Source: Patescibacteria group bacterium (lineage in GTDB: Bacteria > Patescibacteriota > UBA1384 > XYA2-FULL-43-10). From it: a stretch of DNA of 32,000 bases. The notes under the pieces were generated by a model that saw only the letters and a program-made list of their open reading frames with translations, was not told where the DNA came from and did not search any database. Location of the stretch: contig JBAYVT010000004.1 of NCBI GenBank assembly GCA_041674405.1, positions 30,001 through 62,000 of the forward strand. Direction: 5' to 3'. Both the position numbers and the translations under genes were made by a program. This document shows positions 9,415 to 32,000 of the stretch, piece by piece (position 1 is the first letter of the stretch; each line of letters opens with the position of its first letter).

Positions 9415-9767
9415 AAATCAAAAAAACAAAAAAAACTGCTTTAATTTTCGCCGCCACCACATTGATCTCTGTGCTGCCCGGGTTTGCCAGCGCATTTACC
9501 ACCGGAGTTGCAATAAATGGCAAAACAACTTTCTCCAGTTATATGGACTGGATGAAATCAATTTTTGGCTTTGCCATGAAACTTGGAGCGGTTTTAACTA
9601 CCCTAATGATACTCTATGCCGCAATCAAATATATCACCTCGCAAGGCAATTCTAGTGCTACCAATGAAGCAAAGGACATAATTATCGGCAGCCTGTCCGG
9701 CTTCGCCATGCTGCTTCTCATTTATTTAATTCTTAATGTTTTGGGGCTAAAAAGCTTTGCGTTTTAG
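9408..9767 (+). CDS. VirB2/TrbC-like (T4SS-pilin-like) small membrane protein 1
   Basis: A signal peptide (PGFASA/FT) is followed by a two-TM hairpin, LMILYAAIKYITSQGNSSATNEAKDIIIGSLSGFAMLLLIYLI. The start overlaps the SBP stop (ATGGTAA). Confidence 0.65.
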   Translation: MVKIKKTKKTALIFAATTLISVLPGFASAFTTGVAINGKTTFSSYMDWMKSIFGFAMKLGAVLTTLMILYAAIKYITSQGNSSATNEAKDIIIGSLSGFAMLLLIYLILNVLGLKSFAF

Positions 9768-9776
9768 TTAGTTAAA

Positions 9777-12694: not shown

Positions 12695-14359
12695 TTAATC
12701 TTTCGTTACGCGCCAGACTTCTTCTGCAGTCGTAACGCCCGATAAAACTTTTGAAAGTCCGTCCTGTTCCATGGTAATCATGCCTGAAGACAGGGCGGCT
12801 TTTGTAAATTCCGAGAGTCCGGCTTTTTCGAATAATAGTTTATCGATTGACTCGTTTGGAACAAGCACTTCAATAATTACTTGCCGGCCAGAAAACCCGA
12901 CATTTCTACATTTTCCACATCCTTTTCCGCGTTTTAGCTTGGGAGCGGCACTTGATAACAAATTTTGGGATGCAGGATCCAATAATTTTTGAATAGGCAA
13001 CAAAGAGTCTTGAATTTCTTTCCAGACTTCAGGGCTGGGAGTATATTCCTCGGCACAAGCCGGGCATATTCTGCGCACGAGCCGCTGAGCCATAACCAAG
13101 TTTATTGATCCTGACAAGAGGAATGGTTTTACGCCAATATCAAGCAATCGGACAAAAACTCCGGGTGCAGAGTTGGCGTGAATAGTAGAGAGCAGCAAAT
13201 GGCCCGTCATGGCAGCCTGTATCGCAATTTCCGCCGTTTCGGTGTCTCTTACCTCCCCTACCATTAAAATGTCAGGATCTTGGCGCAGAGAGGCTCTAAG
13301 ACCCAAGGCGAAGGTATATCCCTCCTCTTTTTCAACCTGGCTCTGCTCCACACCGGGAATGTGATACTCGACAGGATCCTCAAGAGTGATTATTTTTACA
13401 TTTGACTTATTGAGCTCATGTAAAATTGCATAAAGCGTAGAGGATTTACCTGAACCGGTCGGTCCAGAAGTTAGAATCATCCCATGCGGCTTCGAAATTG
13501 CTGCCTCGATTACAGATAGCGCATCGGGCCTTATGCCCAAGTTCTTTAGGCTCAAGATTGACCCAGTTTGGCGGAGCAATCGGATTACAACGCTCTCTCC
13601 GTCAGCTGAAGGTAAGGTAGACACTCTTAAATCGATTGGCTCCTCTCCAAACTTGAAAGAAAACCTGCCGTCCTGCGGTTCGATGGCATTATCCATTTTT
13701 AGTTTCGATAAAAATTTTATTCTGGATAAAAGTGACTTATACTGGGACATCGGAAGAGACACGACGTTTTGCAAAACCCCGTCAATTCTGTATCGAATAA
13801 TGAATTCTTTTTCTGTCGGCTCAAGGTGGATATCTGATGCATTTGTTTTTGCTGCTCCGGTCATAATTACCTCGAGGAGATGGGTAGTTGATACGCTTCT
13901 GGCGACACTGGCAGCTGATTCTAAATCTTTAATCTCTTCCGTAAAGTTTTGCCCGGATTCTTTCGTTTCTTCGGCTTTCTTTTTTTCCTCTTTTTCTTTG
14001 TTTTCATAAGCCAGAATGCCGTAAAACAGGCTTGCTTTCGAAATTAATGATTTCACAAATTTCAATTTCGATGTTCTCTCAAGCTCGGCTAGATAAGATG
14101 CCATGGCATCATCCGAAGGGTTGGCTGTGCCAATTTTTACCGTAGACCCGATCTTTAAGTAAGGAATAATTTGAAACCTCAAGGCGATTTCCTTTGAAAT
14201 CAAATTTAAAATCTCCGGCGCAATCGGATAATTTGAGAGATTTATATATGGCAAATTCAGCTTTTTTGCCAATTCTTGGGTATGTCTCTCCTCCTGCTCG
14301 CGGTTGAGGTAAAAAATTGTCTTATTAAGATCAGGCAAGTTCCCTCCGGTCAAAAACAA
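12695..14359 (-). CDS. PilB/GspE-family secretion/pilus assembly ATPase
   Basis: It has an N-terminal T2SSE_N-like domain, Walker A GPTGSGKSST, the Asp/His box region, and a tetracysteine CPAC...CGKC motif. The start (TTG at 14359) is uncertain. Confidence 0.88.
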   Translation of the reverse strand: MFLTGGNLPDLNKTIFYLNREQEERHTQELAKKLNLPYINLSNYPIAPEILNLISKEIALRFQIIPYLKIGSTVKIGTANPSDDAMASYLAELERTSKLKFVKSLISKASLFYGILAYENKEKEEKKKAEETKESGQNFTEEIKDLESAASVARSVSTTHLLEVIMTGAAKTNASDIHLEPTEKEFIIRYRIDGVLQNVVSLPMSQYKSLLSRIKFLSKLKMDNAIEPQDGRFSFKFGEEPIDLRVSTLPSADGESVVIRLLRQTGSILSLKNLGIRPDALSVIEAAISKPHGMILTSGPTGSGKSSTLYAILHELNKSNVKIITLEDPVEYHIPGVEQSQVEKEEGYTFALGLRASLRQDPDILMVGEVRDTETAEIAIQAAMTGHLLLSTIHANSAPGVFVRLLDIGVKPFLLSGSINLVMAQRLVRRICPACAEEYTPSPEVWKEIQDSLLPIQKLLDPASQNLLSSAAPKLKRGKGCGKCRNVGFSGRQVIIEVLVPNESIDKLLFEKAGLSEFTKAALSSGMITMEQDGLSKVLSGVTTAEEVWRVTKD

Positions 14360-14797: not shown

Positions 14798-15517
14798 CTA
14801 TTTCACCGCGCAGATTATGTCGTAGTTGGGCTCTGCCGCAAGGTTTGGTCTCAAGACTCTCTTCACCCCTAGCCCCCGAACAAGCCCTTCCATTTCGTTT
14901 GGCGCAAGCAAATACGAAAGTGAGCGGTTCTGGAACTGCTGCCCGCGAACGATACCCTTCCCCTCTATCACCCGCGTTCGCCGAAACCAATCGTGGGTGA
15001 TGTCAACCGCCATGCTGTAGCCGAGGAAGGAAAGGTTCAGGTGACCACCACCCTGATCAATCTCGTGCTGTGAGATCGTGTCGAGGTAGAGAAGTCCGCC
15101 GCTTTTTAAGGCAGCGAGCATTTCTTTTAGGCTTCTTCCGATCTCCATGCGACACCGACCAGGATCGAAGATATCGCCCTTCCCCCAGCCCCCCACGTTT
15201 GTTAAGCTGTTACCTCTGCATATCACAGCGTCGAAAGTCCTGGCCAGCTCGCGAGCCTTCCGCCAATCCAGTTTGCGAAACTCAATCGCCGGATGGCTGT
15301 GGCGAGCAGTGGCGATGTCGATCATCTCTTCGTCCGCATCGATCCCGACCCCTGTAAAGCCGCGCTCTGCTAAACCGTGCAGCACATGCCCACCGCCGCA
15401 TCCACACTCGATGATTGTTCTGACGCCGAGTTCCCGCAGTAAATCCGCTAGTTCTTTGATGAACTCCGAGCCATACATCAGCTCGGACAAGATTACCCAC
15501 TGCTGTGACAGAGTCAC
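14798..15517 (-). CDS. Class I SAM-dependent methyltransferase, glycine/sarcosine-N-methyltransferase-like (GC-rich)
   Basis: Motif I is IIECGCGGGHVLHGLAERGF. FDAVICRGNSLTNV and LKSGGLLYLD resemble the remembered GNMT-type post-I/III motifs. The GTG start overlaps the upstream stop (GTGA). Confidence 0.75.
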   Translation of the reverse strand: MTLSQQWVILSELMYGSEFIKELADLLRELGVRTIIECGCGGGHVLHGLAERGFTGVGIDADEEMIDIATARHSHPAIEFRKLDWRKARELARTFDAVICRGNSLTNVGGWGKGDIFDPGRCRMEIGRSLKEMLAALKSGGLLYLDTISQHEIDQGGGHLNLSFLGYSMAVDITHDWFRRTRVIEGKGIVRGQQFQNRSLSYLLAPNEMEGLVRGLGVKRVLRPNLAAEPNYDIICAVK

Positions 15518-16158
15518 GTGCCTTCAACCTCCTTCATCATGATCACTCGCAGGCCTCCTGTTGCTGCGTCCTCCGGAATAAAATCCGGAGCTATCCAGAG
15601 AAACTTACCCCCAAGCCGGTAGTAGAAGGCCAAGAGCGGGTCGAGGCAAAGTTCGCGATCAGTAGGAAAGGGCCCTCCCGCGAGATGTCGATCTATCGCC
15701 TCCTTGAACGCGGGCCTTTGTCTAATCCCTTCTCTTGGGCTTCCATTGTAGGAGGCCGGCCTCCCGTCAGCTATTCCAAGGATGCAACCATCCGACTTAA
15801 TTCGACCAAGCATAGCTTGCGCCAGTAATACTGCTGTGCGGGCATTGCGATACTTATCCTGCACGTTGAGGTTGTAGACGAAGGCACAATCATGGCTGGT
15901 CTCCATCGGCATCGTCGAGAACTCCCCAAAGTTTCTGGAAAATGCTTTGGGATCACTCGGATAAAACCGGGAGTAGGAAAAGCAGATTTTCCCAACCAGC
16001 TCCCCGTCCAGTCTGGCCCCAAGCATGATGTGTCCAAGGCGCAGCCGCTGCTCGATCAGCTCACGGCTGGCGCGCAGATAGGGCGGGAACGACAGGTTCT
16101 CGTCTTCGAGGATTTCGTCCAAATCCTCGAAAGACAACTCGACTATCATCGTGTCCAT
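15514..16158 (-). CDS. GNAT-fold acyltransferase-like protein (GC-rich), start revised
   Basis: The track ORF runs to 16299, but its first 47 codons lie in the AT-rich spacer. The ATG at 16158 (MDTMIVELSFEDL) is preceded by AAAGGAGG. The central VYNLNVQDKYRNARTAVLLAQAM resembles a GNAT beta4-alpha3 region. The family assignment is tentative. Confidence 0.5.
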   Translation of the reverse strand: MDTMIVELSFEDLDEILEDENLSFPPYLRASRELIEQRLRLGHIMLGARLDGELVGKICFSYSRFYPSDPKAFSRNFGEFSTMPMETSHDCAFVYNLNVQDKYRNARTAVLLAQAMLGRIKSDGCILGIADGRPASYNGSPREGIRQRPAFKEAIDRHLAGGPFPTDRELCLDPLLAFYYRLGGKFLWIAPDFIPEDAATGGLRVIMMKEVEGT

Positions 16159-16193
16159 AATGTCTCGCCTCCTTTGGATTCTTCGAAACAAAA

Positions 16194-16223
16194 AATTATC
16201 CCTCCGTCTTGGCAGGATGTCAA
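16194..16223 (-). promoter_or_regulatory. Sigma70-type promoter TTGACA-N18-ATAATT for the GC-rich two-gene operon
   Basis: On the minus strand, TTGACA is the complement of 16218-16223 and ATAATT is the complement of 16194-16199. The promoter lies in the divergent spacer shared with the TrmB-like regulator gene. Confidence 0.55.
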
Positions 16224-16308
16224 TAATTTGCACAGGGATTTTGTTAGTGATATCCTTTAATCGAGATTGTTTTATTAAAATGTTGTCAAAGTTTTTCACA
16301 AATAAGTT

Positions 16309-19953: not shown

Positions 19954-20466
19954 CTAGAAGCGGCCGATGTTGTACTGGGCGCAGACGCTGTCGTCCTGCC
20001 CATCCACGCAGAGCCGGTATAGCCCTGATGCGCGGCCGGACTTCCAACAGAACTGGATGGTCTGGTAGGGCTTGCACCCCGCCTGGTATTTCACATACCC
20101 CATCGCATCCAGGCCCCTCACGATCTTGACCGGCGGCGTCGTAACGTCCGCCCGCCACGGGTCGTATCCCCACACACGAAGACACGAATTCCAGGGGTTG
20201 ACCTCGGCGCCGAGCCTCAGCCGCTCATTGTCCGTCCTGGCAAGCCAGAGGACATCGGCCGGCTTGTACCCTGCCATCAGCAGAGTGTAGGGCCCGTCCA
20301 CCTGCTGTTCGGCGTAGAACCACGCCGAACCGCGAGCAACGGTCACGGTTGCAGCCGTGTACTCGCCTTGGACGAACACACCCGGAGACACCGACACCTC
20401 GTCCGCGAAAGCGACCGAGACGGACAAAGCCAACATTGCGATCAGAACAGCGGTAATAGCGCGCAT
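19954..20466 (-). CDS. Secreted Cys/Trp-rich hypothetical protein (GC-rich)
   Basis: The signal peptide is MRAITAVLIAMLALSVSVAFA/DE. The mature protein is about 149 aa with 5 Cys. An AGGAGG SD lies 6 nt before the ATG. No family was recognised. Confidence 0.65.
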   Translation of the reverse strand: MRAITAVLIAMLALSVSVAFADEVSVSPGVFVQGEYTAATVTVARGSAWFYAEQQVDGPYTLLMAGYKPADVLWLARTDNERLRLGAEVNPWNSCLRVWGYDPWRADVTTPPVKIVRGLDAMGYVKYQAGCKPYQTIQFCWKSGRASGLYRLCVDGQDDSVCAQYNIGRF

Positions 20467-20784: not shown

Positions 20785-20974
20785 AAGATCATTCTTCAAA
20801 AATAAAAACACCGAAATCGTGTTTGACTTAAGTAAAGTACCATAATTAATAGTTAAAGTCAACGATTTAGAGATAGTGGCTTTGCCCAGTGAAGAGCCCG
20901 AAACTGAACGAAGTGAATTTTGGAGTGTCTTCACGGACAAAGCAATACAATATATGCGTGCAGGAGTAAGGGTC

Positions 20975-21021
20975 TTAGGGGGCTAGAGGGCTGCCCCGCA
21001 ATTAAGCCCTCTGCCCCCTAA
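20975..21021. other. Long GC-rich imperfect palindrome/hairpin in the rpmH-dnaA spacer
   Basis: TTAGGGGGC-t-AGAGGGCT (20975-92) pairs with AGCCCTCT-GCCCCCTAA (21005-21). That is 17 bp with a 1-nt bulge and a 12-nt loop. Confidence 0.7.
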
Positions 21022-21114
21022 TATAATGGCTATTTTATTTGTAGGTTTCTCGGCAAGCTCGAAATGACAAGTGTATTTGAGATTGTCTGCCGTACTACGT
21101 CAGACAAGGCATTA

Positions 21115-21139
21115 ATCCCGAGCTTGTCGAGGGATTGAC
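21115..21139 (+). repeat. 25-bp direct repeat, copy 1 (ATCCCGAGCTTGTCGAGGGATTGAC)
   Basis: It is exactly identical to 21210-21234 and contains an internal 6-bp stem, AATCCC/GGGATT. A degenerate inverted relative lies at about 21047-21063. Confidence 0.8.
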
Positions 21140-21209
21140 TCATTCGACTGTGCTCAGAGTCAATCCAAAAACTTTGAGTAATTTATCACCATTATAGCCA
21201 CAGCAATTT

Positions 21210-21234
21210 ATCCCGAGCTTGTCGAGGGATTGAC
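21210..21234 (+). repeat. 25-bp direct repeat, copy 2
   Basis: It is exactly identical to 21115-21139 and sits 6 nt upstream of a perfect DnaA box. Confidence 0.8.
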
Positions 21235-21240
21235 ACACCC

Positions 21241-21249
21241 TGTGGATAA
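21241..21249 (-). promoter_or_regulatory. Perfect DnaA box (TGTGGATAA, complement of TTATCCACA) upstream of dnaA
   Basis: This is an exact 9-mer. The extended context CACCCTGTGGATAAC recurs at about 21587-21602 (inside dnaA) and at 23024-23040 (CACCCTGTGGAAAAC). Confidence 0.75.
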
Positions 21250-21293
21250 CTTGATATAGTTTTTACATAAGATTAATTGCCTTAAGGAACTGA

Positions 21294-25424: not shown

Positions 25425-25697
25425 ATGGACAAGATTGAGAAGTTATTGATGGGTGCTCTCAACAAGAAGGGGCTTGCTGGAGCGGCTACAAGCTCGCATG
25501 CCTGTTTTTTGGCCGAAAAATGGGGAAAGGGGCGGCTCAAAGCCATATCCTGCTCTCGGGGGATTCTGAAGGTCTCTGTGAGCTCATCCGCTGCTGCCCA
25601 GGAACTCTCTATGGACGAAGAAGAATTGCTCTCTCATATCAATGTTAAGATGGGTCGAGAATGCGTTAAGCGTTTACGTATAATCAACTCTGATTAA
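25425..25697 (+). CDS. DUF721 (DciA-like) protein
   Basis: It is 90 aa, sits directly after recF, and GILKVSVSSSAAAQELSMDEEELLSHIN fits the remembered DUF721 pattern. Confidence 0.65.
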   Translation: MDKIEKLLMGALNKKGLAGAATSSHACFLAEKWGKGRLKAISCSRGILKVSVSSSAAAQELSMDEEELLSHINVKMGRECVKRLRIINSD

Positions 25698-25780: not shown

Positions 25781-25860
25781 GGTACCGCAGGGCGAGTGGG
25801 AGAGTGATTTAAGGATATCAAAATTCTAATTGTAAATGTCAAATAATTATCCACAGAACC

Positions 25861-25889
25861 TTGACTTTGGGGCAGTATTGTGGTATATT
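25861..25889 (+). promoter_or_regulatory. Sigma70-type promoter TTGACT-N17-TATATT (with TGg extended -10) for the GC-rich CsgG-like gene
   Basis: TTGACT is at 25861-66 and TATATT at 25884-89. A perfect DnaA box, TTATCCACA (25846-54), lies 6 nt upstream of the -35. Confidence 0.6.
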
Positions 25890-25972
25890 GGAGCGTTCGA
25901 TAATAATCCTTAGGGCGCACAGCTGCGATTAGCGCAGGCGTCCAAGGTACTGATTGTCAGGAGGTGGCAGAC

Positions 25973-26893
25973 ATGCGTCTGTCCACGATAATTGGGTTAG
26001 CTATGATGTTGGTGTCGGGGGCGTTCGCGGGAGAGATCGCAGTCTGCCCGCAGCCTACCCCTCAGAGACTGGCGATCGCGCCGGTCTCTGCCTCGTCCCT
26101 TGGCCAGTTCGAGTGGTGGGTGGACGAAGAGGAGGCGGCCGGCCTGGTCGAGGAGCGAGCCTATGAGGTCGCTCCCTGCATTCTGGCCGCCTACAACATG
26201 GAGCTGGTAGAGCGGAAGATGCTCGGGATCGCAGAGGCCGAGCAGGCCTTGGCAGAGGATCCGTACATGGACCCCACTACCTTCGAGCAGCCTGGCCAGG
26301 GCGTCGGCGCCAACTGGCTCCTGGTGGTTACGGTCACCAGGATGAGCGTGGAGGATAAGTCCGTGGACGTTGAGATCCGCGGCAACTCCTATCACGCTGA
26401 GAAGTCCATGATAACGGTCTGGCTGCAGGCGCGGATCGTCAATGTGGGGACGAAAGTCGTGTCACCCGCGCTATCGATTCGCAAGAACTGCACGATCACG
26501 ACTGACCAGCAGCTCAGCCTGCAGAGCGGCGAGTGGGATCTGGGCGGTGATCAGCGGACGGACATCGTGACCGATGCCGTCTATAAGATCACCGACTCTG
26601 GTCTTGCCGAGCTCTTGGGGCAGCTGCTGCCCAAGCTTGGCATCAGGACTGGGGCGCAAGCCGGATTCCGGTACGACCCGCAGACGGGCGAACGCATTTC
26701 GGTGATTGAGCAGACATACATCTGCCCGAACCCGAGATGCAACCGGATCTCGCCGAAAGGAGCGAACTTTTGCCCCTACTGCGGCGCCAGGTTGGACCGG
26801 CCCTGCGAACCCGCACCGGCAATCGAAAGGGCGCGGCCCTGTGAGCCGCCACCAGCCGCTAACCGCGACAAGGTGAACCACGCCGGCGGATAG
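25973..26893 (+). CDS. Secreted CsgG/LpoB-like-fold protein with a C-terminal zinc ribbon and Pro-rich tail (GC-rich), start revised
   Basis: The ATG at 25973 lies 8 nt after CAGGAGG; the track used a GTG at 25964. The signal peptide is MRLSTIIGLAMMLVSGAFA. MELVERKMLGIAEAEQAL...GANWLLVVTVTRMSVEDK...ITVWLQARIVNVGT parallels the CsgG-family pattern. The zinc ribbon is CPNPRCNRISPKGANFCPYCGARL. Confidence 0.55.
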   Translation: MRLSTIIGLAMMLVSGAFAGEIAVCPQPTPQRLAIAPVSASSLGQFEWWVDEEEAAGLVEERAYEVAPCILAAYNMELVERKMLGIAEAEQALAEDPYMDPTTFEQPGQGVGANWLLVVTVTRMSVEDKSVDVEIRGNSYHAEKSMITVWLQARIVNVGTKVVSPALSIRKNCTITTDQQLSLQSGEWDLGGDQRTDIVTDAVYKITDSGLAELLGQLLPKLGIRTGAQAGFRYDPQTGERISVIEQTYICPNPRCNRISPKGANFCPYCGARLDRPCEPAPAIERARPCEPPPAANRDKVNHAGG

Positions 26894-26917
26894 CCGGCAC
26901 CAAGGAGGAGAAGTACC

Positions 26918-26954
26918 AAAGGAGCGCCCTTAACCGGGCGCTTCCTTTGTGTTT
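26918..26954. terminator. Strong hairpin terminator between convergent genes
   Basis: AAAGGAGCGCCC (26918-29) pairs with GGGCGCTTCCTTT (36-48) with a 1-nt bulge, followed by GTGTTT. Confidence 0.7.
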
Positions 26955-26975: not shown

Positions 26976-29900
26976 TTAAAATCCGACATGTGTATACGCG
27001 GTAGTCTGTGGATTTGCCCACATGCCAGCCTTGGTGCCGTTACACAAGCCGTTTGTTTGCCCGCCGCCAGTGACATTTTTACATATGGTATCTGATGTAA
27101 GTGCTGACCAAGCATTTACATCTTCCCAACGGCCGGTCATGACCTGGGTTGGGACGAGCTTTTGATCATCTGTACTTGATGGCATGTCGTATAAGTTTTG
27201 GATGAATTTATTGGCCTTGTATTGTGCAGCCTCAATTATCTTTCTCTCTCTGGTTTTACTGTCTATACCATTCCATACCCCGAGATTTCCGTTGTCCACT
27301 ATATCGGGTGATGGTGGTGATTCGATGCTAGGATAATAACCATCAGCTGTACACAAGTATTCAACTTTGTAAACACCAAAGAGGTTATTGTAAAGGATAA
27401 TTGCCACATCAATTGCTGCTTGTATCCAGTTGCCATACAGAAAGCTGATAGTGGCATCCAGAAGAAGCGATAAGGTGCCAGGAGCAAGTCCGAGCTGCTC
27501 GTCCCATTTTGCCAATGTGTCGCCCAGAACAAGCCTTGCCGCATAAGAGATTGCCGCAGCCTTGGCATTTGCAAGATTGGCACCAGAAGCCCCGCTTCCG
27601 CCGGACGCAGCAAATGCCTGCTCTGCCTGTTTAAAGTTCTGGTACAAATTATAAAGATTTTGGCTTGTGCCTGGCGGCAGACCAAATGTCTTGTCAACAA
27701 ATCCGCCAACAAAGTTTAGGGCAAACGATGGGCCCCCATAAATGTCTGCTAGAGATTGAAGCTTATTTCCAGCTATTGATAGTGCCCCTTCTAAGCTTCC
27801 AGTCTGAAGAAATCCAAGAATACCACCGAATGTGCCTTGGCCGAAATCGACCCCAAAAATCGAGGCTGCCTTACCTGTAATGTAATTATCTATTGTGTTA
27901 ACGAGAGTTCCGTCGGCAGTGGCTGATCCCAAAAGGCCATTCAAAGCGCTCTTAAAGTCAAAGCTGTTCGGATCAGAAATAAAATTTTGTAGTGTTCCCA
28001 AGAATCCGCCCGGAAGAAAATCTATTCCGAGGTCATTCCGGATTAAGCCCTCGGCATATTCAAGTAGGGTAGTTGTCCGCGTCCAATCATTCCCCTGAAA
28101 CATGCTGCGGGCAAAATCGGCAGGAATATTCGGATCCAGCCTGTGCAAGGCTAAATCAATTGATTTATACTCCACTCCCTGGCTCCAAATATTTGTAGCA
28201 AAGTCGATTGCTGCTTGCCCAGCGTTTAAGACATCAAGCGCTCGAGTATTGCCAATTCGAACATTTAGAAGGCTGTCAATTGCCGCCCCTGTATCAATCC
28301 CAGCAGTAATGCGCAATCCATTGTCAACTTGAAGATTTAGAATCGGCGCACTTGAAGTATCCGATGCACCCGGGAAATTAAGGCCAATGTTAATAATCCC
28401 GTTTGGAGGCCCAAGGTTAGATGATGTAGTAGAATCGGACAATATCCCGGTTGAAACGTTGAAGGTGGCGTTACCGGCGGCGATCGTCCAGTTGTAACTA
28501 GAATTAGTCAGCTGGTTCCATCTTTGTTGCTCTGCTGCCAGGCGAACGGCAATTTCCTGTGTTAAATCTCCATATACCAATCGCGTTAGATCGCTAAAAT
28601 TAAACTTGAATGAATTTAGGGCATTTATTGCGTTGTCGTATGTTTCAAATATTCCCAAATTGAAGGGCAATCCGTCTTTGCCGGAATACATTTGGGGGAT
28701 ATTCATGACTGCACCTAGGAGCTGAATCGGCCTAAAATCCCCATAGAGAATTTGCTGGAAAGTTGAAGAGTCAAACCCGTCCATGTTTAGGAGATTTTTG
28801 AGAGAATATTCCAGGTTGCCGGCAATATCTTTGATCGTGAAATTAACTTGCAAATCTTTAAAAGCGTCCCCGACAAGTGTGTTTAACTGTCCCCCGATCG
28901 TGGACTTGAGGCAAGATTCCGTATCTCCACTGCCGCCAAATATCGAGAGCCCGCATCTTATGTCCGGATTGCCCAAGATCAATGTCTTGAATACTGAAGT
29001 CAATCCTAAACTGCTGTCAAATGCCTCGGCACCAAAGGATATTAATCTGTTAAAAGTTGTCTGAGGGTCTTGCAGAATTGTGGCCATGGTGCCTTCCGGC
29101 AAACCGGCTTTTTTATCCAGATTCCAAGAGAAAATATTGTTTAATGTACCATAAAGATCACCCATGTTATCGCCGGGATCTTTGATCCAGGTGATGAGAT
29201 TGTTTATGTCGCCATCTGTTATTTGCCTGTCGCTGCCGTCTTGTAGCCCGAGTCCTTTTATCAAACCCGAAATCAAATTGTTCTGAGTTGCGGCATCAGT
29301 AACCTGGCGTACGTATTGGTTTATCGGGAAAATCTCACCCAGGCTTCCCGCGGTTGGCGAGGCAAGAAGCTTGACTGTTGTGCCATCCGGCAGCCCGAGA
29401 TTGCGATCCAGAAAAGATAATCTGCCAACGAAGTTGTTCCACGAAGGTTCGTTCTGGCTAAATAAGGTGGCAATTGTATCCGAATTAAATCCACCGGTGC
29501 TTCCTTTTGAGACCAGGGAATCAATTGTCTTTTGTAATGCATCATTCACTCCGGTCCAGTTAGTGCCTAAGGCCTGGTAATAAGTTACAACGGAGTTTAG
29601 TTTTTGATAAAAGCTGTTTCCTGCATTCACATTAAAGAAATTTTCACCCATAGACTTTAATTCTGCATTTACAACACTGATCTCTTCTTGGCTTACCGGA
29701 ATTTGGAACGCTTCGGCAAATTTAACAACCCCGACATTCTTTGCAACACCCAAAATATTTCCGCTTTTTAGCGACCCAGCCGGTAATCCGAGCAGTGACT
29801 CTGCTTTATTTGACCCAACACTGCTACCGGTGAACAAAGAAGCCAAGTCAAGGTTGCCTGTGCCAATAGAGTTACCGATAAGATTAGTTGATATTTGAGT

Positions 29901-32000
29901 GGCTGCGCACTTTCTTGCGCTTGCATTATCATTGTTTAGGAGCCCCGAAGCGGTACCTTTTTGCAGATTGAGGCTAGAATCTAGAATTGAGCTGCCGATT
30001 TTTGCGAATACGCTCTTTGAATTGCCGTTAAATATATTGAAGATATCGTCAGCGGTCAATCTTCCGGATCCTATTTGTGTTCCGATAGATTGGTTTACAG
30101 AAGATGCGGCAAGCTTGTCGACTATGTTGTAGCCAGAAACCTTTAGGTAGTCGAGCGGGACTTGCCCACCGGAGCTATTTTTATTCTGCCTTGAAAATAC
30201 CGCTTCGCTTTCTTCAGTCGAGATATTTAGCCCGAAGTCCAAAATCTTTTCAAATTGGATAAGATTAGCATCGCTAAATGGCTTGGACGATGTATTATCA
30301 GAAACAAATGTGTCTAGGGCAGCTTTTATTTTATCAGCACTTCCATAATCCTTTAGGAAGTCTTTTGCCGCGGCAATTCCTTCGGCAGAAAATTGTGGCG
30401 GGAATGACCTAAAATAATTTTCGAGGTAAGAAGGAACTCCGCTGCCTGTTTGTGAAGCTCCTTTAGATATGTCCAAAGATAACAAATAAACTGCGTTTGC
30501 AATTTCGTCAGTATAATTTATTTTTTTATCATCGTTTGCGCTCTTGTATTCACTAGCAGCAGAATATGTGCTAAATATATGTTCGCCGGCTTTGTCGAAA
30601 TACACGTAGCTATTGTCTGGTATGGTCGTGCCTGCGATATCGACATTTTGTATGGGCTGGCAGGGATTGTCAGGCGTTGCTGCTGCCATTAAGTAATTGT
30701 TGTGGTCGACGAAGTAAATTTGGTTAACCCCAGGATTGTCATTTCCTCCCTTGTGTGTCATAAACGCCTTAATCGCTGCTTCGGAAACATGCATTTTTGT
30801 TGCCAAAAGCCTGATAGTATCGCTGTCAGCTTCCGATTGGTCATATCCACCGATTTGTTGTCCGGTGATAAATTTCTCGGTCGTCCCGGCCGGCAGCTTG
30901 CTTTTCACGTCATTCGCAATCGCCTTGGAGCGAGCCGAAGACCACGCGCTGAAGCTGTTGTTCATAAGGTCATCAAGATCAAATCCCTTTAGTCCCATGC
31001 CCGATGCAAGAATATTGTTTGCTTTGCTCCGGCTTATTTTCAATTTGTTTACCATGCCGTCACGAAGGTCTGCCAAAGATTTTGGTGACGACAGATCAGA
31101 TCCTGTTAAAATTGAGCTTCCGGCAACTCCAGCTTGCTCCTCAAGAGCTGCTGAACCGATGGCACGGAAAAAAATGTCTTTGAAACTTTGGCTGTTCTTT
31201 GCTTGGTCATTGTTTTTTGCCAGAGCCAGTGCGTCCGAAGCATATTTTAGGGCCTTTGAAGAGATCCCCAAGCTGCCGCTTAGTTTAGCTGAGGCAGCGC
31301 CAGATACTAAATCTTGCAAAGTAGTTTTTCCGGACAGGAACGAAACCAGGTCTCCCAATCCAAGCTTGGAGCCACCCAGATCGATGGAGGAAAACTTAAT
31401 ATCACTCAAGTGCAAATCTTCAATCTTAAAATCCGCCTGCTCGTTTCCAGTGGTGATCTCATATGCAGATTTTGTGATATCTTGTACATTCTGCATTACG
31501 CCATTGAGCTGGTGCAGATAATCGGAAAATGTTCCGTCATTGCTTGAAAGGCCTTCGGAGAGATCTGTAGATCCGGAAAATACCGGGGAGCTTGCTTCGT
31601 TAATGATACTGCCAATCGCGATTGCGGCTGTTGTTGTGTCTCCGCCTCCCGGGTTTGCATCAGCCTTTTCGGCAGCGGTCGCGAACACAGACAAAGCCTG
31701 TTTTAGAGCGTCATCCTTTGCTTTTATTGTGCTATTTAATTTGTCTGATACTGCGCTTGAAGCAGACGTATAACTTTGTATTCGTTGATTTAGAGTGTTC
31801 AGTGTGGACTTAATGCCGTTGATTCGGTCGGTATAATATGCCTGATCGCGAACATTTTTATTTTCTAATACATTTGAATTGTTTGCTTCTTGTGTTTTTT
31901 TATCGTCATAGCCCGAAGTCTCAAGTGCTTGCCTTAAGTTTTTTTGCCCTATTTTTTTGAAAGTACCGGCCGGGTCTGATCCTATGCCAAATAAATTTGC
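26976..32000 (-). CDS. Giant hypothetical surface-type protein (at least 1674 aa in window), N-terminus beyond the window
   Basis: The track starts it at a TTG (31694). Checked triplet by triplet, the frame has no stop from 31695 to 32000 and no Met there, so the gene continues upstream. It is Gly/Ser/Asn/Leu-rich, and no catalytic motif was recognised. Confidence 0.7.
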   Translation of the reverse strand, partial: ANLFGIGSDPAGTFKKIGQKNLRQALETSGYDDKKTQEANNSNVLENKNVRDQAYYTDRINGIKSTLNTLNQRIQSYTSASSAVSDKLNSTIKAKDDALKQALSVFATAAEKADANPGGGDTTTAAIAIGSIINEASSPVFSGSTDLSEGLSSNDGTFSDYLHQLNGVMQNVQDITKSAYEITTGNEQADFKIEDLHLSDIKFSSIDLGGSKLGLGDLVSFLSGKTTLQDLVSGAASAKLSGSLGISSKALKYASDALALAKNNDQAKNSQSFKDIFFRAIGSAALEEQAGVAGSSILTGSDLSSPKSLADLRDGMVNKLKISRSKANNILASGMGLKGFDLDDLMNNSFSAWSSARSKAIANDVKSKLPAGTTEKFITGQQIGGYDQSEADSDTIRLLATKMHVSEAAIKAFMTHKGGNDNPGVNQIYFVDHNNYLMAAATPDNPCQPIQNVDIAGTTIPDNSYVYFDKAGEHIFSTYSAASEYKSANDDKKINYTDEIANAVYLLSLDISKGASQTGSGVPSYLENYFRSFPPQFSAEGIAAAKDFLKDYGSADKIKAALDTFVSDNTSSKPFSDANLIQFEKILDFGLNISTEESEAVFSRQNKNSSGGQVPLDYLKVSGYNIVDKLAASSVNQSIGTQIGSGRLTADDIFNIFNGNSKSVFAKIGSSILDSSLNLQKGTASGLLNNDNASARKCAATQISTNLIGNSIGTGNLDLASLFTGSSVGSNKAESLLGLPAGSLKSGNILGVAKNVGVVKFAEAFQIPVSQEEISVVNAELKSMGENFFNVNAGNSFYQKLNSVVTYYQALGTNWTGVNDALQKTIDSLVSKGSTGGFNSDTIATLFSQNEPSWNNFVGRLSFLDRNLGLPDGTTVKLLASPTAGSLGEIFPINQYVRQVTDAATQNNLISGLIKGLGLQDGSDRQITDGDINNLITWIKDPGDNMGDLYGTLNNIFSWNLDKKAGLPEGTMATILQDPQTTFNRLISFGAEAFDSSLGLTSVFKTLILGNPDIRCGLSIFGGSGDTESCLKSTIGGQLNTLVGDAFKDLQVNFTIKDIAGNLEYSLKNLLNMDGFDSSTFQQILYGDFRPIQLLGAVMNIPQMYSGKDGLPFNLGIFETYDNAINALNSFKFNFSDLTRLVYGDLTQEIAVRLAAEQQRWNQLTNSSYNWTIAAGNATFNVSTGILSDSTTSSNLGPPNGIINIGLNFPGASDTSSAPILNLQVDNGLRITAGIDTGAAIDSLLNVRIGNTRALDVLNAGQAAIDFATNIWSQGVEYKSIDLALHRLDPNIPADFARSMFQGNDWTRTTTLLEYAEGLIRNDLGIDFLPGGFLGTLQNFISDPNSFDFKSALNGLLGSATADGTLVNTIDNYITGKAASIFGVDFGQGTFGGILGFLQTGSLEGALSIAGNKLQSLADIYGGPSFALNFVGGFVDKTFGLPPGTSQNLYNLYQNFKQAEQAFAASGGSGASGANLANAKAAAISYAARLVLGDTLAKWDEQLGLAPGTLSLLLDATISFLYGNWIQAAIDVAIILYNNLFGVYKVEYLCTADGYYPSIESPPSPDIVDNGNLGVWNGIDSKTRERKIIEAAQYKANKFIQNLYDMPSSTDDQKLVPTQVMTGRWEDVNAWSALTSDTICKNVTGGGQTNGLCNGTKAGMWANPQTTAYTHVGF

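What the first reader, a model, noticed from the sequence alone, without database searches (positions are those of the whole stretch)
25846..26954. GC-rich secreted CsgG/LpoB-like protein fused to a zinc ribbon, an apparent topological paradox
The 306-aa product has four parts:
- A clear Sec signal peptide.
- A middle region whose pattern resembles the CsgG/LpoB-like periplasmic alpha/beta fold (hydrophobic-x-(V/L)-E-R-x-x-L...E-Q-x-L, then G-A-x-(W/Y)-L-L-x-x-x-(V/I)-T).
- A classic four-Cys zinc ribbon, CPNPRC...CPYC.
- A Pro-rich tail with a duplicated RPCEP(A/P)PA segment.

Zinc ribbons are normally cytoplasmic, so one located after a signal peptide is odd. The hydrophobic N-terminus may instead be a signal anchor with the bulk of the protein inside the cell.

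A CsgG-type envelope protein is also out of place in an organism that shows no outer-membrane genes in this window.
Basis: partly seen in the sequence, partly recalled or inferred. Interest (0 to 1): 0.7.

Follow-up and report, generated by a model that had tools for sequence, protein, structure and literature searches.

The report
Exported CsgG-like zinc-ribbon protein, hyper-structured mRNA
A tiny-genome (CPR/Patescibacteria) bacterium with no outer membrane exports a divergent CsgG-type envelope protein ending in a four-cysteine metal knuckle, and the gene sits in a variable "slot" whose genes are kept unusually GC-rich and hairpin-rich across related genomes.

Summary
Window 25973-26893 (+) encodes a 306-aa protein with an MR-hydrophobic-AFA|G signal peptide, a CsgG/LpoB-type alpha/beta domain, a CX4C-X10-CX2C ribbon and a Pro-rich tail with duplicated RPCEP(A/P)PA. 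GC is 62.6% against about 43% around it.

The CsgG-like call is supported four ways: Foldseek top hit CsgG (E 9e-9), hhalign 96.7%, Pfam CsgG above cut-off in two orthologues, and phmmer E 2e-7 to true CsgG repeats. It is not a CsgG channel. There is no lipobox and no curli genes, and the hairpin matching CsgG TM1 is highly charged.

Every relative keeps the "MR + hydrophobic + AxA" N-terminus and has no later membrane segment, so the ribbon is most likely outside the cell.

New findings:
- The gene occupies a slot between dciA and a convergent giant surface-protein gene in related Patescibacteria MAGs (several labelled Berkelbacteria).
- Slot genes, from at least two detectably unrelated families, are always GC-rich (GC3 0.63-0.80 against about 0.45) although synonymous sites are saturated.
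- 13 of 15 slot coding sequences fold far better than synonymous shuffles (z -3.7 to -11.6; controls +0.5 to -2.8).
- 12 of 15 place the start codon in a stable hairpin.

The protein's function and the cause of the nucleotide anomaly are inferred, not shown.

The parts
25861..25889 (+). Sigma-70-type promoter, TTGACT-17-TATATT with TG (extended -10)
   Evidence: Other slot genes carry TTGACA / TGnTATAAT-type promoters.
25913..25943 (+). 5' leader hairpin (GGCGCA..CTGCG-ATTAG-CGCAG..GCGTCC). L003 has a matching hairpin with loop GATTA and a different stem sequence.
   Evidence: No Rfam family matches.
25959..25966 (+). Shine-Dalgarno AGGAGGTG, 6 nt before the ATG
25964..25986 (+). Hairpin with the start codon in its loop (GGCAGAC-AUGC-GUCUGUC, -13.5 kcal/mol)
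   Evidence: Similar hairpins of -6.9 to -21 kcal/mol, with different sequences, occur in 12 of 15 slot genes. Controls give 0 to -3.3.
25973..26893 (+). Coding sequence of 306 aa plus stop. GC 0.626, GC3 0.792. Folds at -444.5 kcal/mol against -390 for synonymous shuffles.
25973..26029 (+). Signal peptide, residues 1-19 (MR / 16-18 uncharged residues / AFA|G)
   Evidence: The pattern is conserved in all relatives.
26060..26647 (+). CsgG/FlgT-M/LpoB-type alpha/beta domain, residues about 30-225 (b1 a1 b2 a2, two long beta-hairpins, a3)
   Evidence: AF2 model; Foldseek against PDB and BFVD; hhalign; phmmer; Pfam on orthologues
26663..26707 (+). Conserved G-(W/F/Y)-x-(F/Y)-DP-x-T-G linker, residues 231-245
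   Evidence: Alignment A1. Slot relatives L013 and L026 have a longer C-terminal region here instead of a ribbon; in L013 it gives a sub-threshold Pfam FlgT_C match (18.5 bits against a cut-off of 27), and L026 gives no Pfam match.
26723..26794 (+). Zinc-ribbon-type knuckle pair C251/C256 ... C267/C270, residues 251-274
26795..26890 (+). Pro-rich, non-conserved tail with duplicated RPCEP(A/P)PA. AF2 pLDDT is below 50.
26921..26954 (+). Intrinsic terminator flanked by A- and T-tracts, shared with the convergent giant gene. L001 has a matching hairpin with a different stem sequence.
25425..25697 (+). dciA, the upstream border of the slot. It is the last gene of the dnaA-dnaN-recF-dciA block.
26976..32000 (-). 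Convergent giant gene, more than 1,670 codons, open to the window edge. It is the downstream border of the slot. In the complete L006 homologue (2,518 aa) there is an N-terminal signal and a C-terminal cluster of membrane helices.

Best explanation
The gene encodes a Sec-exported, non-lipidated envelope protein of a single-membrane Patescibacterium. It belongs to a very small lineage-specific family.

**Shown**
- The core is a divergent CsgG/FlgT-M/LpoB-type alpha/beta domain.
- A C-terminal Cys4 knuckle pair follows it. The fourth ligand is Asp in four relatives.
- The only membrane-type segment is a cleavable-looking N-terminal signal.

**Inferred**
- Domain and knuckle both lie outside the cell. 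The knuckle binds a metal there, which is feasible in the anoxic habitats these MAGs come from.
- Like the ring- or collar-forming relatives of this fold (CsgG, PelC, FlgT, LptE), the protein acts as a surface scaffold or dock rather than a pore. The likeliest partner is the membrane-anchored giant protein encoded convergently next to it.

**Shown for the gene itself**
- It is a self-contained unit with a strong promoter, 5' hairpin, perfect SD and terminator, sitting in a variable slot between dciA and the giant gene.
- Whatever gene occupies the slot is kept GC-rich.
- In most cases the mRNA is far more base-paired than codon usage explains, and the start codon sits in a hairpin.

**Inferred for the gene**
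- Selection acts on the mRNA, either for long life or for gated translation of a surface protein. The GC-richness follows from that selection, not from a recent transfer.

**How the confidence splits**
- Fold, export and 'not a pore': about 0.85.
- GC-richness maintained rather than a relic: about 0.8.
- Cause is selection at the mRNA level: about 0.4.
- Giant protein as partner: about 0.3.
For: **Fold**
- phmmer to P0007, a protein with two CsgG repeats (Pfam CsgG 235 bits): E 1.9e-7.
- Pfam CsgG is above cut-off in orthologues P0004 (22.8) and P0005 (25.0), against a cut-off of 20.8.
- hhalign of the family against true CsgG/LpoB repeats gives 96.7% probability, E 4e-10, over residues 31-121.
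- The AF2 core has pLDDT mostly 80-90. Foldseek's top PDB hits are CsgG 4uv2/4uv3 (E 9e-9), followed by HpaA, GNA1162, LptE, FlgT and PelC. The top viral hit is also annotated CsgG.

**Export**
- There is a single hydrophobic segment.
- MR + 13-22 uncharged residues + an AxA-type site is found in all 12 N-termini examined: the target, 10 slot-gene relatives and gene 2.

**Knuckle**
- It is conserved in the target, P0002-P0005, L009, L012, L017 and L025.
- A Cys3Asp variant, FCPxDG, occurs in four of them. This fits metal binding better than two disulfides.

**Not a pore**
- The 21 residues at the tip of the hairpin that aligns with CsgG TM1 carry 8 charged residues plus one His, against 3 in CsgG.
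- There is no lipobox and no curli genes nearby.

**Slot**
- The CsgG-like gene is convergent with homologous giant genes in all 6 loci that carry family members.
- Among loci recovered with the giant's C-terminus, the slot is filled in 9 and empty in 6 or more.

**Composition**
- GC is 0.61-0.65 against 0.43-0.47 in the flanks in every family locus.
- Third bases at conserved four-fold sites match no more often than chance in most pairs, yet GC4 stays at 0.62-0.89 against 0.37-0.53 in the giant gene, with one giant value of 0.67.
- Scoring 1.84 billion representative proteins with phmmer found only six related proteins (P0002-P0006, P0008); all sit next to a homologous giant gene, most flanked by AT-richer DNA.

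**RNA**
- Synonymous-shuffle z is -8.5 for the target and -3.7 to -11.6 in 13 of 15 slot genes. Eleven control segments give +0.5 to -2.8.
- Dinucleotide shuffles give z -7.1.
- Sense-strand excess beyond shuffles appears in 5 of 8 genes.
- Start-codon hairpins occur in 12 of 15.
Against: - No topology predictor and no experiment was available. Export rests on rules and conservation.
- The target's own Pfam ribbon score is below cut-off, and the ribbon's pLDDT is only 54-69.
- Metal binding, oligomerisation and interaction with the giant protein are untested. Convergent genes are not co-transcribed, so adjacency may only reflect a permissive insertion site.
- The slot is empty in several relatives, and an apparently unrelated protein family fills it in others. 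This weakens a specific pairing with the giant protein.
- The closest orthologue L001 (z -1.3), L014 (+0.1) and the second GC-rich gene (-1.05) lack excess folding. GC-richness and structure are therefore separable.
- Helices are not conserved in position.
- The target itself shows no sense/antisense asymmetry, so a DNA-level cause is not excluded for it.
- A start-codon hairpin of -13.5 kcal/mol argues against simple high expression.
Confidence: 0.5

Rival explanations
1. Recent horizontal transfer. The gene is a periplasmic CsgG-like gene captured from a GC-rich double-membrane donor. Its GC content and 'wrong' envelope context are leftovers of that origin, and it may be non-functional here.
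For: - GC is 0.63 against 0.43, with sharp borders at the gene.
- Codon usage looks like that of a GC-rich organism in all codon families.
- The slot is empty in some relatives.
- One orthologue, L012, is frameshifted.
Against: - Orthologues at 30-52% identity sit at the same place next to homologous giant genes, with broadly matching divergence.
- Synonymous sites are saturated, yet GC4 remains 0.62-0.89 in each lineage.
- The signal peptide and fold motifs are conserved.
- The promoter, SD and terminator are host-type.
- No donor-side homologue was found among 1.84 billion representatives or in the GTDB, metagenome and viral scans.
Confidence: 0.05
2. Signal anchor with a cytoplasmic bulk. 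The N-terminal helix is uncleaved and oriented N-out/C-in, or the protein is not membrane-targeted at all, so the zinc ribbon is cytoplasmic as usual.
For: - Zinc ribbons of this Pfam type are normally cytoplasmic (general knowledge).
- No paper in the library uses phrases such as 'periplasmic zinc ribbon' or 'extracellular zinc ribbon'.
- Some slot relatives (L013, L011, L014, L015) have a second, weakly hydrophobic Gly-rich segment after the signal. If that segment spans the membrane, their C-terminal parts would be inside.
Against: - Positive charge (MR or MKR) lies on the N-terminal side, and the following 15 residues are neutral or acidic in most members.
- Small residues at -3/-1 follow a 13-22-residue uncharged core in all 12 N-termini examined.
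- The target has no second hydrophobic segment.
- The CsgG-type fold is, as far as known, an extracytoplasmic fold.
Confidence: 0.07
3. A true CsgG-like beta-barrel pore. Subunits oligomerise and their long hairpins insert into a membrane, either the bacterium's own or a host cell's outer membrane. The pore would export the giant protein or attack the host.
For: - CsgG is the best structural match.
- Hairpin 1 (residues 115-157) aligns with CsgG TM1 and has nearly the same length, 40 against 42 residues.
- Patescibacteria are thought to live attached to host cells (general knowledge).
Against: - The tip of hairpin 1 is EDKSVDVEIRGNSYHAEKSMI, with 8 charged residues plus His in 21. CsgG has 3 in 21. 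The tip is polar and variable in all orthologues.
- There is no lipid anchor.
- There are no CsgE/F-like partners or outer-membrane assembly genes in the window.
- The bacterium's own envelope has no outer membrane (general knowledge, not tested).
Confidence: 0.08
4. The nucleic acid is the main selected product. The slot holds a GC-rich, hairpin-dense element that acts as RNA or as DNA near the replication-gene block. The open reading frames it carries are secondary passengers.
For: - The anomaly follows the slot, not the protein family. Family-2 genes L011 (z -5.8) and L015 (z -11.6) share it.
- Both strands of the target fold well, z -7.1 and -6.6.
- Perfect 10-12-bp palindromes lie inside the coding sequences.
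- Leaders and start-codon hairpins are conserved across families.
Against: - The proteins are clearly under protein-level constraint: 14 invariant columns, conserved signal peptides and a recognisable fold.
- No helix is conserved in position, and no Rfam family matches.
- L001, L014 and gene 2 are GC-rich without excess structure.
Confidence: 0.12

Closest known systems
CsgG, the curli secretion channel of E. coli (Pfam PF03783; PDB 4uv2, 4uv3)
   Same: - Same alpha/beta core with two long beta-hairpins, and the best structural match.
- Shared E-R-x-x-L ... E-Q-x-L and (A/L)R(I/V)VNV motifs.
- Two orthologues pass the Pfam cut-off.
- Both carry an N-terminal export signal.
   Different: - No lipobox Cys, no csgE/F/A/B neighbours, and (by general knowledge of the phylum) no outer membrane to sit in.
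- The TM1-equivalent hairpin is highly charged.
- It carries an extra C-terminal zinc-ribbon knuckle and a Pro-rich tail.
- The target's own sequence gives no Pfam CsgG hit.
FlgT (middle plus C-terminal domains), FlgO and tandem CsgG-domain proteins such as P0007
   Same: - P0007, the closest true CsgG-domain relative by sequence (E 1.9e-7), combines CsgG, FlgT_M and FlgT_C matches.
- Slot relative L013 has a C-terminal region with a sub-threshold Pfam FlgT_C match where the target has the ribbon.
- These proteins are scaffold or collar components, not pores.
   Different: - FlgT and FlgO belong to flagellar rings of double-membrane bacteria. No flagellar genes are present here.
- In the target the C-terminal module is a Cys4 knuckle.
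LpoB, the outer-membrane lipoprotein activator of PBP1b (PF13036)
   Same: Same superfamily. True repeats that match the target's family also match LpoB. It is a small envelope adaptor that works by binding a partner.
   Different: Neither the target nor its orthologues give a Pfam LpoB hit. There is no lipid anchor and no long disordered N-terminal linker.
Zn_Ribbon_1 (PF13240) and DZR-type zinc ribbons
   Same: C-x2-4-C ... F-C-P-x-C-G spacing. Orthologues pass the Pfam cut-off.
   Different: Here the ribbon lies C-terminal to an exported domain with no intervening membrane helix, so it is predicted to be outside the cell. The fourth ligand is Asp in four relatives.
mRNAs whose coding-sequence structure lengthens functional half-life (bioRxiv 10.1101/549022, 'mRNA structure regulates protein expression through changes in functional half-life'). 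By general knowledge, also the long-lived, 5'-hairpin-protected mRNAs of S-layer genes.
   Same: Strong promoter, 5' hairpin, strong SD, strong terminator and a heavily paired coding sequence for a surface protein.
   Different: - The size of the effect: GC3 raised by about 35 points and z down to -11.6.
- It is confined to one genomic slot and persists across saturated divergence.
- A stable hairpin lies over the start codon.
- No expression or half-life data exist for these genes.

Membership tests
CsgG family (Pfam PF03783) | Sequence match to the family profile above the curated cut-off | tested here: inconclusive
   The target gives no hit. Orthologues P0004 (22.8 bits) and P0005 (25.0) pass the 20.8 cut-off, while P0003 and P0006 are below it. 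hhalign to true repeats gives 96.7%.
CsgG family (Pfam PF03783) | ABD-like alpha/beta fold with extended beta-hairpins | tested here: met
   AF2 model from 7 sequences, with core pLDDT about 80-90. Foldseek's top hits are CsgG at E 9e-9, probability 1.0, about 205-218 aligned columns.
CsgG curli channel (function) | N-terminal lipobox Cys for a lipoprotein anchor | tested here: not met
   The predicted cleavage is AFA|GE. The IAVC at residues 22-25 has Val at -1 and is absent from the closest orthologue P0002.
CsgG curli channel (function) | Two amphipathic hairpins able to form a transmembrane barrel | tested here: not met
   The tip of the TM1-equivalent hairpin has 8 charged residues plus one His in 21, against 3 in CsgG. 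Its sequence is polar and variable in all orthologues. No multimer model could be made.
CsgG curli channel (function) | Curli operon context (csgE, csgF, csgA/B) and an outer membrane | tested here: not met
   The neighbours are dnaA, dnaN, recF, dciA and a giant ORF. No curli or outer-membrane assembly genes were seen among the window ORFs scanned. Absence of an outer membrane in Patescibacteria is general knowledge and was not tested.
LpoB (PF13036) | Profile match | tested here: not met
   No LpoB hit for the target or its orthologues at E up to 0.1-10.
Zinc ribbon (PF13240 Zn_Ribbon_1) | Two Cys knuckles with family spacing and a profile match above cut-off | tested here: inconclusive
   The target has CX4C-X10-CX2C and scores 20.6 bits against a cut-off of 25. 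P0004 scores 29.4 and L017 32.2, both passing.
Zinc ribbon (PF13240 Zn_Ribbon_1) | Metal (Zn) coordination by the four ligands | not testable with these tools
   Only indirect evidence. Cys3Asp variants in P0003-P0005 and L012 fit a metal site better than two disulfides.
Sec/SPase I signal peptide | Positive n-region, hydrophobic h-region of about 10-20 residues, small residues at -3/-1, and no further membrane segment | tested here: met
   Rule-based only. MR, then 18 uncharged residues, then AFA|G. The same pattern holds in all 12 N-termini examined: the target, 10 slot-gene relatives and gene 2. There is a single Kyte-Doolittle peak. SignalP and DeepTMHMM were not available.
Tat signal peptide | Twin-arginine motif (S/T-R-R-x-F-L-K) | tested here: not met
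   The n-region has a single Arg in the target and its orthologues.
Known structured RNA families (Rfam 15) | Covariance-model match in the leader or coding sequence | tested here: not met
   Only tRNAs match in the window. Nothing matches at E up to 1 in L002-L006.

The most novel reading that the evidence does not exclude
The interval between dciA and the giant surface-protein gene is a dedicated expression slot in related Patescibacteria (several MAGs are labelled Berkelbacteria). Whatever secreted-protein gene occupies it is driven, over long evolutionary time, to a GC-rich, hyper-base-paired mRNA with a hairpin over the start codon. At least two detectably unrelated protein families occupy it. 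This would be a previously undescribed class of very long-lived or translationally gated messages for surface proteins, perhaps released on host contact. The extracellular Cys4 knuckle would be one of their recurring modules.
Probability: 0.3. Interest if true: 0.8.

Novelty: new variant of a known kind. Interest (0 to 1): 0.68.

Why it matters
- **Reach of the fold.** It shows a CsgG/FlgT/LpoB-type envelope fold at work in a bacterium without an outer membrane, joined to a cysteine metal knuckle that is predicted to be outside the cell. I found no description of that combination. This widens what the fold and the knuckle can be used for, and gives a concrete candidate surface component of poorly understood symbiotic ultra-small bacteria.
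- **A composition anomaly that is maintained.** The gene is a clean natural example of a compositional anomaly that is not a transfer scar. GC3 is about 35 points above the genome, is kept in every lineage despite saturated synonymous sites, and is coupled to extreme mRNA folding.
- **Consequences if selection on mRNA structure is the cause.**
  - Island-calling methods that treat atypical GC as recent horizontal transfer would misread such genes.
  - The slot would be a compact model for how bacteria tune message lifetime or gate translation through the coding sequence itself.

Tried and rejected
**Searches that found nothing useful**
- PDB sequence searches with the protein and with the family profile found only ribbon-type hits, eL40 and RNF4. 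A rubredoxin-like match around FDPxTG had E 0.17 and is not significant.
- NCBIfam gave nothing useful.
- The word-indexed protein search found only two proteins with the single sequence and three with the profile.
- Pattern scans with the family alignment found nothing in GTDB genomes, metagenome contigs or viral contigs. The first alignment was too divergent to give search patterns. Using the giant protein's conserved C-terminus instead gave 18 + 5 loci.
- Rfam gave no family for the leaders or the coding sequence.
- Literature searches found nothing on CsgG in Patescibacteria, extracellular zinc ribbons, or GC-rich genes in this phylum.

**Ideas tested and dropped**
- Long antisense ORFs (25997-26395 and 26471-26881) lie in the frame that only closes on TTA, CTA or TCA sense codons. 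They are the usual by-product of high GC3, so I rejected them.
- A conserved specific RNA structure is rejected. Pairs of one orthologue's fold are kept in another at 0.38-0.57, against 0.36-0.44 for slid controls.
- A rod-like (viroid- or Obelisk-like) fold is rejected. The median pair span is 34 nt.
- Translational selection for C-ending codons only is rejected. G-ending codons rise just as much.
- A regional GC gradient from biased gene conversion gets weak support at best. recF and dciA have GC3 of about 0.53, but rnpA, next to the second GC-rich gene, has 0.34.

**Other**
- The second GC-rich gene has no homologues, and its single-sequence AF2 model is unreliable, pLDDT 44.5.
- The first attempt at the folding test timed out.
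Full report
**1. What is there**

The ORF list gives 25964..26893 (+) from a GTG.

- an extended -10 promoter, TTGACT-17-(TG)TATATT, at 25861-25889;
- a 5' leader of about 75 nt with a hairpin;
- the coding sequence;
- an intrinsic terminator at 26921-26944 followed by a T-tract.

GC is 0.626 and GC3 0.792. Ordinary genes of the window have GC3 of 0.32-0.55, and the GC step coincides with the coding sequence. The same junctions occur in independent assemblies: an NCBI MAG contig of 151 kb, a Logan/ENA contig of 158 kb and a JGI contig of 4.7 kb. NCBI labels the protein 'zinc ribbon domain-containing protein, Patescibacteria group bacterium' (MFA7244272.1), using a shorter start.

**2. Surroundings**

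The gene follows yidC, jag, rnpA, rpmH | dnaA, dnaN, recF, dciA. It is convergent with a giant ORF that has no Pfam match and stays open to the window edge. The window also holds a lipobox-bearing solute-binding protein, type IV secretion pilins and a T2SS/T4P-type ATPase.

**3. Family and fold**

The family is tiny. Scoring 1.84 billion representative proteins with phmmer found six relatives:

| Protein | E-value |
|---|---|
| P0002 | 4e-82 |
| P0003 | 6e-41 |
| P0004 | 8e-28 |
| P0005 | 2e-24 |
| P0006 | 5e-15 |
| P0008 | 2e-7 |

Just beyond them lie two true multi-repeat CsgG/LpoB proteins, P0007 (E 1.9e-7) and P0011. The target itself gives no Pfam CsgG hit, but four lines of evidence agree on the fold:
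- Orthologues P0004 and P0005 pass the curated cut-off.
- hhalign of the family against the true repeats gives 96.7% probability, E 4e-10, over residues 31-121.
- An AF2 model from the 7-sequence alignment shows b1-a1-b2-a2, two long beta-hairpins and a3, with core pLDDT of about 80-90.
- Foldseek's best PDB matches are CsgG 4uv2/4uv3 (E 9e-9, probability 1.0). HpaA, GNA1162, CT253, LptE, FlgT and PelC follow. The best viral-library match is also annotated CsgG.

**4. Not a CsgG channel**

- There is no lipobox. Cleavage is predicted at AFA|GE, and the nearby Cys25 is not conserved.
- There are no curli partners nearby.
- The hairpin that aligns with CsgG TM1 is almost the same length, 40 against 42 residues between the conserved flanks. 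Its tip, EDKSVDVEIRGNSYHAEKSMI, has 8 charged residues plus one His in 21, against 3 in CsgG. The tip is polar and variable in all orthologues.
- The nearest architectures are scaffold-type relatives. P0007 combines CsgG, FlgT_M and FlgT_C. Slot relatives L013 and L026 carry a longer C-terminal region where the target has its ribbon. In L013 that region gives only a sub-threshold Pfam FlgT_C match (18.5 against 27 bits), and L026 has no Pfam match.

**5. Topology**

- The target has one hydrophobic segment, residues 3-20.
- The target, 10 slot-gene relatives and the second GC-rich gene (12 N-termini in all) begin with MR (or MKR). A run of 13-22 uncharged residues follows, then a small-x-small site. 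The next 15 residues are neutral or acidic in most.
- There is no twin arginine, so a Tat route is unlikely.
- By the positive-inside rule and the -3/-1 rule this is a Sec signal, and everything after it, ribbon included, is exported.
- I could not run SignalP or DeepTMHMM, so this step is rule-based inference.

**6. The ribbon**

- C251-x4-C256 ... C267-x2-C270 scores 20.6 bits for Zn_Ribbon_1, below the cut-off of 25. The homologous segments of P0004 (29.4) and L017 (32.2) pass.
- The module is present in nine of the relatives examined. It is doubled in P0005 and absent in P0008.
- In P0003, P0004, P0005 and L012 the fourth Cys is Asp (FCPxDG). A Cys3Asp site is plausible for a metal. It would leave an unpaired Cys if the motif were only two disulfides. 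I therefore infer metal binding.
- Several source records come from anoxic settings, an anaerobic digester and deep Lac Pavin water. Reduced thiols can persist outside the cell there. This is inference.
- The Pro-rich tail is not conserved and is modelled as disordered.
- No paper in the library uses phrases such as 'periplasmic zinc ribbon' or 'extracellular zinc ribbon'.

**7. A variable slot**

- In every locus that encodes a family member, the gene is convergent with a homologous giant gene (26-70% identity). Where sequence is available, dciA lies upstream.
- The complete giant in L006 (2,518 aa) has an N-terminal signal and a C-terminal cluster of membrane helices. An M23 peptidase gene lies upstream of it.
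- Searching with the giant's conserved C-terminus recovered 18 GTDB loci, labelled Berkelbacteria, Saccharibacteria or Patescibacteria, and 5 metagenome loci.
- Between the giant's 3' end and dciA the content varies:

| Slot content | Loci |
|---|---|
| Target-family gene with a ribbon | L009, L012 (frameshifted), L017, L025 |
| Target-family gene with a longer C-terminal region instead of the ribbon | L013, L026 |
| Apparently unrelated signal-peptide family | L011, L014, L015 |
| Empty | L007, L010, L018, L019, L021, L028 |

- Promoters (TTGACA / TGnTATAAT) and parts of the leaders are shared across the different cargo genes.

**8. The GC-richness is maintained**

- In six family loci from different samples the gene has GC 0.61-0.65 and GC3 0.73-0.80. 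The flanks, and the giant gene in five of the six loci, are at 0.43-0.47; the short L001 giant fragment reads 0.49. The other slot genes have GC 0.58-0.65.
- At four-fold sites of conserved amino acids, orthologues share the third base about as often as chance in most pairs (0.26-0.40 against 0.29-0.37). The exceptions are window-L001 and window-L006. Synonymous sites are therefore saturated.
- Yet GC4 is 0.62-0.89 in every lineage, against 0.37-0.53 in the neighbouring giant gene, with one value of 0.67.
- Both G- and C-ending codons are raised in all codon families. The amino-acid composition is also shifted, with more Ala, Arg, Pro and Val and less Lys, Asn and Ile.
- No homologue outside this genomic context was found.
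- A recent transfer still awaiting amelioration does not fit these facts.

**9. The coding sequence is hyper-structured**

- The target folds at -444.5 kcal/mol. Shuffles that keep the protein and the codon usage give -390 +/- 6.5, so z = -8.5. Dinucleotide shuffles give z = -7.1.
- Synonymous-shuffle z-scores:

| Group | Genes and z |
|---|---|
| Slot genes with excess folding (13 of 15) | target -8.5, L003 -6.0, L004 -3.7, L005 -6.3, L006 -7.4, L009 -8.0, L012 -8.5, L013 -4.7, L017 -6.0, L025 -9.6, L026 -8.4, L011 -5.8, L015 -11.6 |
| Slot genes without it | L001 -1.3, L014 +0.1 |
| Eleven control genes or gene segments, including moderately GC-rich ones | +0.5 to -2.8 |

- The fold consists mostly of local hairpins, with a median pair span of 34 nt. 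Perfect 10-12-bp palindromes lie inside the reading frames.
- Helices are not conserved in position between orthologues.
- In 5 of 8 genes the sense strand gains more stability over shuffles than the antisense strand does (zD -2.7 to -6.2). This points to the RNA. The target itself shows no such asymmetry.
- Twelve of 15 slot genes place the start codon in or beside the loop of a hairpin of -6.9 to -21 kcal/mol, built from different sequences. The second codon, CGN (Arg), forms part of the stem. Eight control genes give 0 to -3.3.

**10. Synthesis**

Shown:
- the protein is a divergent CsgG-type domain with a conserved export signal and a conserved C-terminal Cys knuckle;
- the gene is a standalone unit in a variable slot;
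- slot genes keep a high GC3, and most have extreme mRNA folding and a start-codon hairpin.

Inferred:
- the protein is an extracellular scaffold or dock rather than a pore;
- it possibly serves the adjacent giant membrane-anchored protein;
- the knuckle binds metal outside the cell;
- the nucleotide anomaly reflects selection on the message, for long life or gated translation, with GC-richness as its consequence.

Weak points:
- no experimental or predictor-based topology;
- convergent neighbours need not be functional partners;
- the slot can be empty or hold another family;
- three GC-rich genes lack excess folding;
- a stable start-codon hairpin argues against simple high expression;
- a DNA-level or mutational cause (template switching, biased conversion) is not excluded.

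**11. Novelty**

The protein is a new variant of a known fold family: a new architecture, in a new envelope context, from a family of about a dozen known sequences. I know of no description of the maintained compositional and structural anomaly of the slot, and I found none in the searchable library. It rests on computation only.

Noticed in passing
window 19954-20466 (-): A second GC-rich standalone gene of 170 aa, with GC 0.626 and GC3 0.795, the same composition as the target. Its signal peptide is similar (MRAITAVLIAMLALSVSVAFA|DE). It has its own TTGACA/TATATA promoter, a CAGGAGG SD, a start-codon hairpin and a terminator. It is inserted between rpmH and rnpA. It has no homologue in 5.8 billion clusters, shows no excess mRNA folding (z -1.05), and its AF2 model is all-beta but unreliable.
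   Followed up: partly
L004 1-153, L005 about 470-616, L006 about 950-1096, L012 and L025 upstream of the slot gene: These loci share a leader of about 130 nt that starts right after TGCTATAAT (GGTCTTTTGGAGGTGA ... AGAGGAAC ... GCGCCCATCC ... GCCCACACCGGGC). It is conserved at the nucleotide level but not in reading frame, and no Rfam family matches. L013, L026, L011 and L014 share a second leader type (GCGTTCATGGGATAAGCGTTATGCTCCCAT) across two apparently unrelated cargo families.
   Followed up: partly
L011 6577-7176 (-), L014 6660-7145 (-), L015 3931-4440 (-): A second slot-gene family with no detectable sequence similarity to the target. It has a signal peptide, a Gly/His/Arg-rich stretch, a weakly hydrophobic Gly-rich segment and a C-terminal domain with W-V-T-D-P-N-T. 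There is no Pfam match. It is equally GC-rich, and L015 has the most extreme folding excess (z -11.6).
   Followed up: partly
L012 6716-7493 (-): The family member in MAG ADurb.Bin212 is split into two ORFs of 163 and 97 aa. This is either a frameshift or a sequencing error. P0006 is the N-terminal piece.
   Followed up: no
window 26976-32000 (-): The giant ORF has no in-frame stop up to the window edge, so the listed TTG start at 31694 is only the first start codon in the window and the protein is longer than 1,572 aa. Its C-terminal 175 residues are well conserved (CTADGYYP, AAQYKA, LVPxQ(V/I)MTGR...THxGF at the end) and follow a hydrophobic cluster. No Pfam family matches.
   Followed up: partly
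window about 20800-21290, between rpmH and dnaA: Probable oriC region. It has a TTATCCACA DnaA box near 21245 and a 24-nt element (GTCAATCCCTCGACAAGCTCGGGA, read on the minus strand) present twice about 90 nt apart.
   Followed up: no
window 14798-16299 (-): Two adjacent, moderately GC-rich genes: a methyltransferase with GC3 0.65 and a weak GNAT-like protein with GC3 0.59. Their folding excess is only mild (z -1.5 and -2.8). This may be an ordinary acquired pair.
   Followed up: partly
window 9408-11975 (+) and 12695-14359 (-): Two proteins with type IV secretion pilin domains (119 and 732 aa) lie next to a T2SS/T4P-type ATPase. This is surface-appendage machinery in the same window.
   Followed up: no
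L006 9654-9858: In the one locus with a complete giant gene, an M23 peptidase gene lies immediately upstream on the same strand. This hints at a link between the giant protein and cell-wall hydrolysis.
   Followed up: no
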